Virus genome (UHGV): UHGV-1359969
Strand: one strand, 5' to 3'
From: a virus
Length of the DNA stretch: 35,681 bases
Shown here one piece after another: positions 12,840 through 13,721 of the stretch. The translations under genes and the position numbers were made by a program. Position 1 is the first letter of the stretch; each line of letters opens with the position of its first letter. Below the pieces are notes generated by a model. It saw only the letters and a program-made list of their open reading frames with translations, searched no databases and was not told the origin of the DNA.

Positions 12840-13721
12840 ATGTCCATCAGCTCAAACAGAAGTTCTATCTCAAGAATTCAAAAAGACATCGCAGATCTAC
12901 AAAAGAAACTCGCGGATGAAGGCAAGAAAGAAGCGCAATTGCAGCAAAAAATAGTGCAGATCCGTGGAAGTATTAATAAAAACACATCACCCAGTACGTT
13001 AACATCGAAAATAAACCAAATGGCAAGACATGAGACTGACTCGGCTAAATGTGCAGCCAATAAAGCTGATATCCTCAAGAAAGTTGCCACCAAAACAGCC
13101 GATCTTCACCGCTACGAATCTCAACTAGCCAGAGATGAAGAGGCAGAAAGAAAAAAACAAGCTGCCGAGATAAAAAAACGAGAGAAAGAACAACTAGAAT
13201 TTCAGAAAAAGCTAACGCGTGAAGTTGAGGCTAGAAACAGGGCCGTTCAAAATCAGATTGCTTTAAGTAAACAGTCCCACGATTCAATGCCTCGCGAAGA
13301 CGATGACCAATTGCAATATGATGTGTTTATTTCTCACGCCAGCGAAGATAAAGATGATTTTGTTCGCCCGTTCGCTGAACACCTGAAATCGCTCGGTGTT
13401 AATGTTTGGTATGATGAGTTATCTCTACAGTGAGGACGCAGCTTAAGGGAACAAATAGATTCCGGCCTTTCCAACTCAAAGTATGGAATTGTAGTAATAT
13501 CAAAGGAATTTATCAAAAAAGACTGGACTAAGTACGAATTTAACGGTCTTGTGACAAAGGAAATTAACGGTTCTGGGCGAATTCTACCAATATGGCACGA
13601 CATTTCAAAAAACGATGTTCTAAAATTCAGTCCGTCACTCGCCGACAAAATGGCGCTGACAACAACCACCAATACAATTGAAGAAATAGCAGAAAAATTA
13701 CTCCCCCTCTTGGCAGAGTAA
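12840..13721 (+). pseudogene. coiled-coil + TIR-domain protein (bacterial TcpB/TcpC-like TIR), interrupted by in-frame TGA at 13431-13433
   Basis: N-terminal ~150 aa Lys/Glu/Gln-rich coiled coil; then YDVFISHASEDKDDFVRPFAEHLKSLGVNVWYDELSLQ-[TGA]-GRSLREQIDSGLSNSKYGIVVISKEFIKKDWTKYEFNGLVTKEINGSGRILPIWHDISKNDVLKFSPSLADKMAL, matching the bacterial TIR box-1 FISHASEDK and downstream RILPIWH/FSPSLADK pattern; same frame throughout; GGAG RBS. Confidence 0.7.

What the first reader, a model, noticed from the sequence alone, without database searches (positions are those of the whole stretch)
13431..13433. In-frame TGA splits the TIR domain
The TIR domain is encoded in one continuous frame except for a single TGA between ...WYDELSLQ and GRSLREQIDSGL.... 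This is a position where TIR homologues carry an ordinary residue, so a single base substitution (for example TGG, CGA or GGA to TGA) is enough to explain it. The truncated product would lack most of the domain downstream, including the W..YEF region where a catalytic Glu is expected. The likely explanations are a recent nonsense mutation inactivating a costly NADase, a sequencing error, or low-level read-through.
Basis: seen in the sequence. Interest (0 to 1): 0.6.

Follow-up and report, generated by a model that had tools for sequence, protein, structure and literature searches.

The report
Nonsense mutation in prophage TIR gene
A single G-to-A change turns a tryptophan codon into a stop inside a known type of NAD-cleaving TIR gene carried by a Morganella prophage, so this copy is a very recent pseudogene or a base-calling error, which is ordinary.

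Summary
ORF 12840-13433 (+) ends at TGA 13431-13433, and the same frame continues to TAA at 13719-13721, giving 293 codons. The joined product matches PADLOC candidate PDC-S66 end to end (E 2e-109). Its TIR domain matches solved AbTir structures (E 5e-57).

Replacing the stop with Trp gives exactly RefSeq WP_305004219.1 from Morganella morganii. All 15 related loci fetched read TGG at this codon. Ten of them are identical to the window over all other 881 nt of the gene. The nearest genome, GCA_030580735.1, differs from window 2441-35681 at only three bases, one of them 13433.

The stop lies in the BB loop (AbTir V173). It removes the residues equivalent to AbTir G174, S176, R178, W204, Y207 and catalytic E208, so the 197-aa product should be catalytically dead.

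Recoding is excluded: TGA ends 13 other genes, there is no suppressor tRNA, and no SECIS-like structure follows the stop.

Diverged alleles give dN/dS of 0.06-0.09, so the family is under purifying selection and the lesion is young. Without reads, a real mutation cannot be told from a base-call error. One nonsense change among two private SNPs is expected about 7% of the time, so no selection need be invoked. Interest is low.

The parts
12840..13433 (+). 5' part of the TIR gene: codons 1-197 plus the premature TGA. It encodes the N-terminal helical hairpin (about codons 3-146), a linker, and TIR elements betaA, alphaA and betaB only.
   Evidence: for the ORF and translation. for secondary-structure elements in the AlphaFold model of the 87%-identical homologue P0001. 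for the PDC-S66 match over residues 1-291.
13431..13433 (+). Premature stop codon TGA at codon 198. It is Trp (TGG) in all 15 related loci. The only differing base is 13433, A here and G elsewhere.
   Evidence: With W198 the protein equals WP_305004219.1 exactly.
13434..13721 (+). 3' part of the TIR gene, still in frame: codons 199-293 plus TAA. It holds the equivalents of AbTir BB-loop G174 and S176, alphaB R178, alphaC W204 (W229, 13524-13526), Y207, and catalytic E208 (E233, 13536-13538). It would not be translated except by read-through.
12830..12833 (+). GGAG Shine-Dalgarno-like motif 6 nt upstream of the ATG at 12840.
   Evidence: Read directly from the sequence. This is an inference, not a test.
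12441..12791 (+). Co-oriented upstream gene in the same moron island. It encodes 116 aa with a signal-peptide-like N-terminus and matches phrog_21923 (unknown function). A promoter-like site lies at 12379-12407.
   Evidence: The same gene precedes the intact TIR gene in L007-L016.
11802..12287 (-). Gene for a 161-aa protein with a signal-peptide-like N-terminus (phrog_1848, unknown function), at the left edge of the moron island next to the tape-measure gene.
13698..13931 (-). Convergent 77-aa phage gene whose 3' end overlaps the last 24 nt of the TIR reading frame. It is conserved next to the TIR gene in other phages.

Best explanation
Window 12840-13721 (+) is a prophage-borne gene for a 293-aa AbTir-type protein: an N-terminal coiled coil followed by a TIR NAD+-cleaving domain (PADLOC candidate PDC-S66). 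It sits in a roughly 2-kb moron island between the tape-measure gene and the tail genes of a Morganella morganii siphovirus-type prophage. In this copy one G>A transition at 13433 changed Trp198 (TGG) to TGA. Translation therefore ends after strand betaB, in the BB loop. The 197-aa product keeps the coiled coil but loses the rest of the BB loop, helices alphaB and alphaC, and the catalytic Glu233, so it should have no NADase or cyclase activity. The rest of the gene is untouched, so the lesion is very young. Shown here: the single-base difference, its position in the fold, and the intact state of every relative. Inferred: that the change is real in the DNA rather than a base-call error, that the product is inactive, and that a small share of ribosomes may read through with Trp-tRNATrp and regenerate the wild-type protein.
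For: Every comparison points to a single private base change in an otherwise intact gene.

- All 15 related loci have TGG at this codon.
- L001 matches the window over 605 nt except at 13433.
- Ten loci (L007-L016) match the gene at 881 of 882 nt, although their phage backbones differ from the window by up to 2-6% on either side.
- The repaired protein equals WP_305004219.1 / MDO7861445.1 / HFJ9806415.1 from M. morganii, seen on 11 contigs. The 197-aa product is absent from the 15-billion-protein collection.
- GCA_030580735.1 differs from window 2441-35681 at three sites only: 13433, 18678 and 25142.
- dN/dS against diverged alleles is 0.06-0.09.
- The protein matches PDC-S66 at E 1.9e-109 over its full length and AbTir TIR structures 7UWG, 7UXU and 8G83 at E 5e-57.
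- AbTir E208A is inactive, G174A and S176A have no or very low activity, and R178A and Y207A are inactive (Manik et al. preprint 10.1101/2022.05.07.491051). All the equivalent residues lie after the stop.
- W229 and E233 are invariant in 121 of 121 homologues.
Against: No reads are available, so a consensus base-call error cannot be excluded. The assembly is a scaffolded draft with a 100-N gap at 17020-17119. Both substitutions private to the window, W198* and Q82L at 18678, alter a protein, and neither variant is on record elsewhere. That fits either very fresh mutations or errors. One nonsense change among two random SNPs in this window is expected about 6.7% of the time, so nothing points to selection for loss.
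Confidence: 0.68

Rival explanations
1. Base-call or assembly error: the isolate really carries TGG, and the gene is intact and identical to WP_305004219.1.
For: The A at 13433 is unique among 15 loci. The truncated product is absent from the large protein collection. The only other window-private change, 18678 Q82L, is also unrecorded elsewhere. The assembly is a gapped draft with 100 N inside a tandem repeat. The site lies within a GGGG run in the wild-type sequence (CAGTGGGGAC).
Against: From general knowledge, substitution errors in a short-read consensus are rare, well under one per 33 kb. G:C>A:T transitions are the commonest spontaneous mutation in enterobacteria. The nearest genome also carries its own private SNP at 25142, so real divergence of this order exists between the two prophages.
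Confidence: 0.26
2. A functional leaky allele: the TGA is real and is kept because read-through by Trp-tRNATrp makes small amounts of the exact wild-type protein, lowering the dose of a potentially toxic NADase.
For: UGA is read through by Trp-tRNATrp in competition with RF2, at about 2% at 37 C and 4% at 25 C in E. coli K-12 reporters (PMC10570021). The wild-type residue here is Trp, so read-through would restore the native sequence. The downstream frame is undamaged.
Against: The allele is seen in one assembly only, and all relatives have TGG. No read-through-promoting structure follows the stop (fold z-score 0.09; no Rfam match). From general knowledge, the base after the stop is G, not the leaky A context, and K-12 values overestimate read-through in strains with fully active RF2. 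A fresh, unselected nonsense mutation would look the same.
Confidence: 0.05
3. Not a defect: the TGA is decoded (selenocysteine, or TGA read as Trp in an alternative code), or the domain is naturally split into two genes.
For: The wild-type residue is Trp, which is what TGA encodes in code 4. Nothing else supports this reading.
Against: TGA terminates 13 other genes in the window, and none of the 32 genes checked has an internal stop. The only tRNA is a tRNA-Met, with no suppressor. There is no SECIS-like structure. Orthologues use TGG, not TGA. All 121 homologues are single continuous proteins. The first in-frame start after the stop is GTG 13551, downstream of the catalytic Glu codon.
Confidence: 0.01

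Closest known systems
AbTir (Acinetobacter baumannii coiled-coil + TIR NADase that makes 2'cADPR; PDB 7UWG, 7UXU, 8G83)
   Same: The architecture is the same: an N-terminal coiled coil followed by a C-terminal TIR domain. The TIR domain aligns over 132 residues at E 5e-57. The catalytic Glu (E233 = E208), cyclisation Trp (W229 = W204), BB-loop G and S, R178 and Y207 equivalents are all encoded.
   Different: This copy is interrupted at the codon equivalent to AbTir V173. It is prophage-borne in Morganella. The wild-type residue here is Trp rather than Val. No enzymatic product has been measured for this protein.
PADLOC PDC-S66 (single-gene phage-defence candidate)
   Same: The HMM match is full length: residues 1-291 against profile positions 1-280 of 282, E 1.9e-109. 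The gene is a stand-alone cassette whose neighbours vary between phages.
   Different: PDC-S66 is only a candidate. Neither of the two papers that mention it tests its function; one was read and only lists it in a table, the other was seen only as a search result. This copy has a premature stop.
Other solved bacterial TIR proteins: TcpB/BtpA (Brucella), PdTIR (Paracoccus) and BtTir (Bacteroides)
   Same: The TIR domains are homologous, at E 1e-39 to 2e-50 against PDB 4LZP, 4LQC, 4C7M, 3H16 and 7UXR. From general knowledge, these proteins have an N-terminal helical region followed by the TIR domain.
   Different: From general knowledge, those proteins are chromosomal and are discussed as virulence factors or NADases. 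Here the gene is a prophage moron and is truncated.
Thoeris ThsB
   Same: The TIR domain matches the ThsB1 profile PDLC00417 at E 1.3e-42 over residues 153-287.
   Different: No ThsA-type effector gene is adjacent. The neighbours are small proteins of unknown function and tail genes. The full-length match is to PDC-S66, not ThsB.

Membership tests
AbTir-type coiled-coil TIR NADase / PADLOC PDC-S66 | End-to-end match to the family profile | tested here: met
   PDC-S66 matches residues 1-291 to profile positions 1-280 of 282, E 1.9e-109, when the stop is read as X.
AbTir-type coiled-coil TIR NADase / PADLOC PDC-S66 | TIR domain above Pfam gathering score | tested here: met
   PF13676 scores 74.8 bits (cut-off 28) and PF01582 scores 45.5 bits (cut-off 21.3). 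Both span the stop.
AbTir-type coiled-coil TIR NADase / PADLOC PDC-S66 | Catalytic Glu (AbTir E208) and alphaC Trp (W204) present | tested here: met
   E233 and W229 are encoded in frame and are invariant in 121 of 121 homologues. Both lie downstream of the TGA, so they are absent from the terminated product.
AbTir-type coiled-coil TIR NADase / PADLOC PDC-S66 | N-terminal coiled-coil or helical region | tested here: met
   The AlphaFold model of the 87%-identical P0001 has helices 3-44 and 51-146, with block-mean pLDDT 83-97 up to about residue 130 and lower beyond. A disordered linker at 146-156 precedes the TIR fold.
AbTir-type coiled-coil TIR NADase / PADLOC PDC-S66 | Uninterrupted ORF of about 273-341 aa | tested here: not met
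   The ORF stops at codon 198. Every full-length homologue is continuous.
AbTir-type coiled-coil TIR NADase / PADLOC PDC-S66 | NAD+ cleavage or 2'cADPR production, and protection against phage | not testable with these tools
   This needs an enzyme assay and phage challenge. PDC-S66 is only a candidate.
Thoeris (ThsA + ThsB) | Adjacent ThsA effector (SIR2/SLOG or Macro/TM) next to the TIR gene | tested here: not met
   The neighbours are 161-aa and 116-aa proteins of unknown function, a 77-aa phage gene and a DUF6246 gene.
Programmed UGA recoding (selenocysteine or TGA read as Trp) | TGA conserved in orthologues, SECIS or suppressor tRNA present, other in-frame TGAs | tested here: not met
   Orthologues have TGG. 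There is no Rfam SECIS match and the fold z-score is 0.09. The only tRNA is tRNA-Met. TGA ends 13 other genes, and none of the 32 genes checked has an internal stop.
Recent nonsense pseudogene | Premature stop inside a conserved domain, sense codon in orthologues, no further decay | tested here: met
   TGA replaces TGG found in 15 of 15 loci. 881 of 882 nt match ten loci. dN/dS in the family is 0.06-0.09.
Recent nonsense pseudogene | Variant confirmed in the underlying reads | not testable with these tools
   No reads are available. The variant was not found in any other public sequence searched.

The most novel reading that the evidence does not exclude
The TGA is real and is kept as a dose-reducing allele. 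Near-cognate decoding by Trp-tRNATrp would restore exactly the native Trp198, so the lysogen would make a trace of fully wild-type NADase, rising when read-through rises (for example at low temperature), while avoiding the cost of constitutive expression. This would be a natural example of tuning a defence effector by stop-codon leakiness.
Probability: 0.04. Interest if true: 0.4.

Novelty: already known. Interest (0 to 1): 0.12.

Why it matters
It matters little beyond annotation. The locus should be annotated as a pseudogene, or corrected to the intact allele WP_305004219.1, rather than as a 197-aa TIR protein. Defence-system inventories that count this prophage as carrying PDC-S66 would overstate its function. 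The Trp-to-UGA change does make a convenient natural test case for asking how much read-through of a defence effector is physiologically relevant. The surrounding observation has modest interest for phage-defence genomics: an AbTir-like cassette that is nucleotide-identical across Morganella prophage backbones differing by up to 2-6%.

Tried and rejected
**Searches that found nothing**
- Megablast of 12300-13900 against phage records and complete E. coli genomes gave no match.
- Exact-pattern scans for either allele (TGA or TGG) in viral, metagenome and genome contigs gave no match.
- A protein-seeded scan of genome contigs gave no confirmed locus.
- Exact look-ups of the 197-aa truncated product and of the window's L82 variant of the 145-aa head protein found neither on record. 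No sibling assembly could therefore be used to test whether the TGA is inherited.

The same loci were reached through the neighbouring 116-aa gene instead.
The 87%-identical P0001 was modelled instead.

**Explanations rejected**
- Selenocysteine or an alternative genetic code.
- A naturally split gene or translational restart. There is no in-frame start before the catalytic Glu codon, and the first is GTG 13551.
- Thoeris membership, because no ThsA gene is present.
- Selection for loss. One nonsense change among two private SNPs has a chance expectation of about 6.7%.

Full report
**Observation.**
The + strand reads ...TAT GAT GAG TTA TCT CTA CAG TGA GGA CGC AGC TTA AGG..., with TGA at 13431-13433. 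ORF 12840-13433 encodes 197 aa ending ...VWYDELSLQ. The same frame then runs on without any shift as GRSLREQIDSGL... to TAA at 13719-13721, giving 293 codons. With the stop written as X, Pfam TIR_2 (E 1.1e-20, residues 162-256) and TIR (E 9e-12, residues 159-276) both span it.

**What the gene is.**
The joined product matches PADLOC candidate PDC-S66 from end to end: residues 1-291 against profile positions 1-280 of 282, E 1.9e-109. Its TIR domain matches several solved bacterial TIR proteins:
- AbTir, PDB 7UWG, 7UXU and 8G83, E 5e-57
- BtTir, PDB 7UXR
- TcpB, PDB 4LZP, 4LQC and 4C7M
- PdTIR, PDB 3H16

Numbering here is AbTir + 25. Trp198 therefore aligns with AbTir V173, the residue just before BB-loop G174. 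W229 aligns with W204, Y232 with Y207, and E233 with the catalytic E208.

In AbTir, E208A is inactive, G174A and S176A have no or very low activity, and R178A and Y207A are inactive. W204 is needed for cyclisation to 2'cADPR (preprint 10.1101/2022.05.07.491051).

An AlphaFold model of the 87%-identical homologue P0001 has mean pLDDT 82. It shows two long N-terminal helices (3-44 and 51-146), a disordered linker (146-156) and a TIR fold. Codon 198 falls between betaB and alphaB.

**Genomic setting.**
The window is part of a siphovirus-type prophage. Its genes include:
- tape measure, 8276-11737
- major tail protein, 14673-15428
- terminase, 22746-24038
- DnaB-like helicase, 33084-34538
- O-antigen acetylase, 541-2379 (all)

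Its closest phage records are Morganella phage IME1369_01 and a Providencia phage. The host is Morganella morganii, judged from the source names of the identical protein.

The TIR gene lies in a small moron island between the tape-measure gene and the tail genes. It shares the island with a 161-aa and a 116-aa protein of unknown function. In other phages the same gene sits next to Arc, Mnt and Ant genes instead. It therefore behaves as a stand-alone cassette.

**The comparative test.**
Replacing the stop with Trp gives a sequence that is exactly WP_305004219.1 / MDO7861445.1 / HFJ9806415.1 from M. morganii, recorded on 11 contigs. The 197-aa product is not in the 15-billion-protein collection.

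I fetched 15 related loci carrying this codon, and all of them read TGG at codon 198. The details:
- L001 matches the window over 605 nt except at 13433.
- L007-L016 match the gene at 881 of 882 nt.
- GCA_030580735.1 (L008 plus L019) differs from window 2441-35681 at three bases only.

The three differences from GCA_030580735.1 are:
- 13433, giving W198*. The window state is derived.
- 18678, giving Q82L in a 145-aa head gene. The window state is derived, because L007 and L008 share the other base.
- 25142, a V/I change. Here the other genome is derived.

Among 121 homologues the position carries W (60), V (42), I (16), L (2) or G (1). W229 and E233 are invariant, and lengths are 273-341 aa apart from one adapter-truncated fragment. 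dN/dS against diverged alleles is 0.06-0.09, so the family is under purifying selection and the lesion must be young.

**Mechanism.**
Shown: a single G>A transition at the third position of a Trp codon creates UGA. Inferred: termination after betaB yields the coiled coil plus one third of the TIR fold. That product lacks every residue shown to be needed for AbTir catalysis, so it should be inactive as an NADase or cyclase.

Because the lost residue is Trp, read-through would regenerate the exact wild-type protein. UGA is read through by Trp-tRNATrp at about 2% at 37 C in E. coli K-12 reporters (PMC10570021). The allele may therefore be a strong hypomorph rather than a strict null. This is inference only.

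**Rivals.**
*Base-call error.* This cannot be excluded without reads. The assembly is a gapped draft (100 N at 17020-17119). Both window-private changes are unrecorded elsewhere.

*Recoding.* This is rejected. TGA ends 13 other genes, and none of the 32 genes checked has an internal stop. The only tRNA is a tRNA-Met. No structure follows the stop (z-score 0.09). Orthologues use TGG.

*Natural split gene.* This is rejected. All homologues are continuous, and the first in-frame start after the stop (GTG 13551) lies beyond the Glu233 codon.

*Selection for loss of a costly NADase.* This is not needed. About 4.2% of possible coding substitutions in the genes tallied in this window create a stop. 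One nonsense change among two private SNPs is expected about 6.7% of the time.

**Verdict.**
The feature is an ordinary, very recent nonsense allele (or a consensus error) of a known, already catalogued AbTir-like / PDC-S66 prophage gene. It is not novel, and interest is low.

Noticed in passing
window 12000-14000, compared with L007, L009, L010, L013 and L014: The moron island (161-aa gene, 116-aa gene, TIR gene, 77-aa gene) is nucleotide-identical, apart from 13433, in Morganella prophages. Their flanking tape-measure and tail genes differ from the window by dozens of substitutions per 500 bp. This suggests recent exchange of the cassette between backbones.
   Followed up: partly
window 16921-17388, with N run at 17020-17119: An exact 100-N scaffold gap sits inside an 18-nt tandem repeat (GGCTGTTCAGGCTGTTCA) that encodes PEQ repeats on the minus strand. 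The equivalent gene is called at 92 aa in the near-identical L008, so the repeat number here is unresolved.
   Followed up: partly
window 18678: This is the second window-private substitution: A here, T in L007 and L008. It gives Q82L in the 145-aa head-region gene 18485-18922 (-). This protein variant is also absent from the public collection.
   Followed up: yes
window 27738-27809 (-): A prophage-encoded tRNA-Met (anticodon CAT) lies between the lysis genes and the late-regulation genes.
   Followed up: no
window 12-64: A 53-nt stretch is 96% identical to tRNA-Thr genes that flank E. coli and Salmonella prophages, but ARAGORN calls no tRNA here. It is probably a partial tRNA copy marking the attachment site at the prophage end.
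   Followed up: no
window 238-462 and 541-2379 (+): At the prophage end lie a DNA polymerase III theta (HolE-like) gene and an O-antigen acetyltransferase (Acyl_transf_3 + SGNH, phrog_6705), next to the tailspike gene. This is a likely serotype-converting moron shared by many Morganella prophages, including P22-like ones.
   Followed up: no
L001 (ENA ERZ807372 NODE_387, 697 bp): This public contig is a single sequencing insert with Nextera adapter sequence at both ends. Its predicted 199-aa protein (P0006) ends in adapter-derived residues (LSLIHI). It is a small artefact in the protein collection.
   Followed up: yes
L005 6510-8249 and 5580-6440: A related phage carries its TIR allele (83% identical) in a larger island with an AAA_15/AAA_21 ATPase, a D12-class methyltransferase, an Ivy-like lysozyme inhibitor, and Arc and Ant genes. 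This suggests a defence and moron hotspot between the tape-measure and tail-chaperone genes.
   Followed up: no
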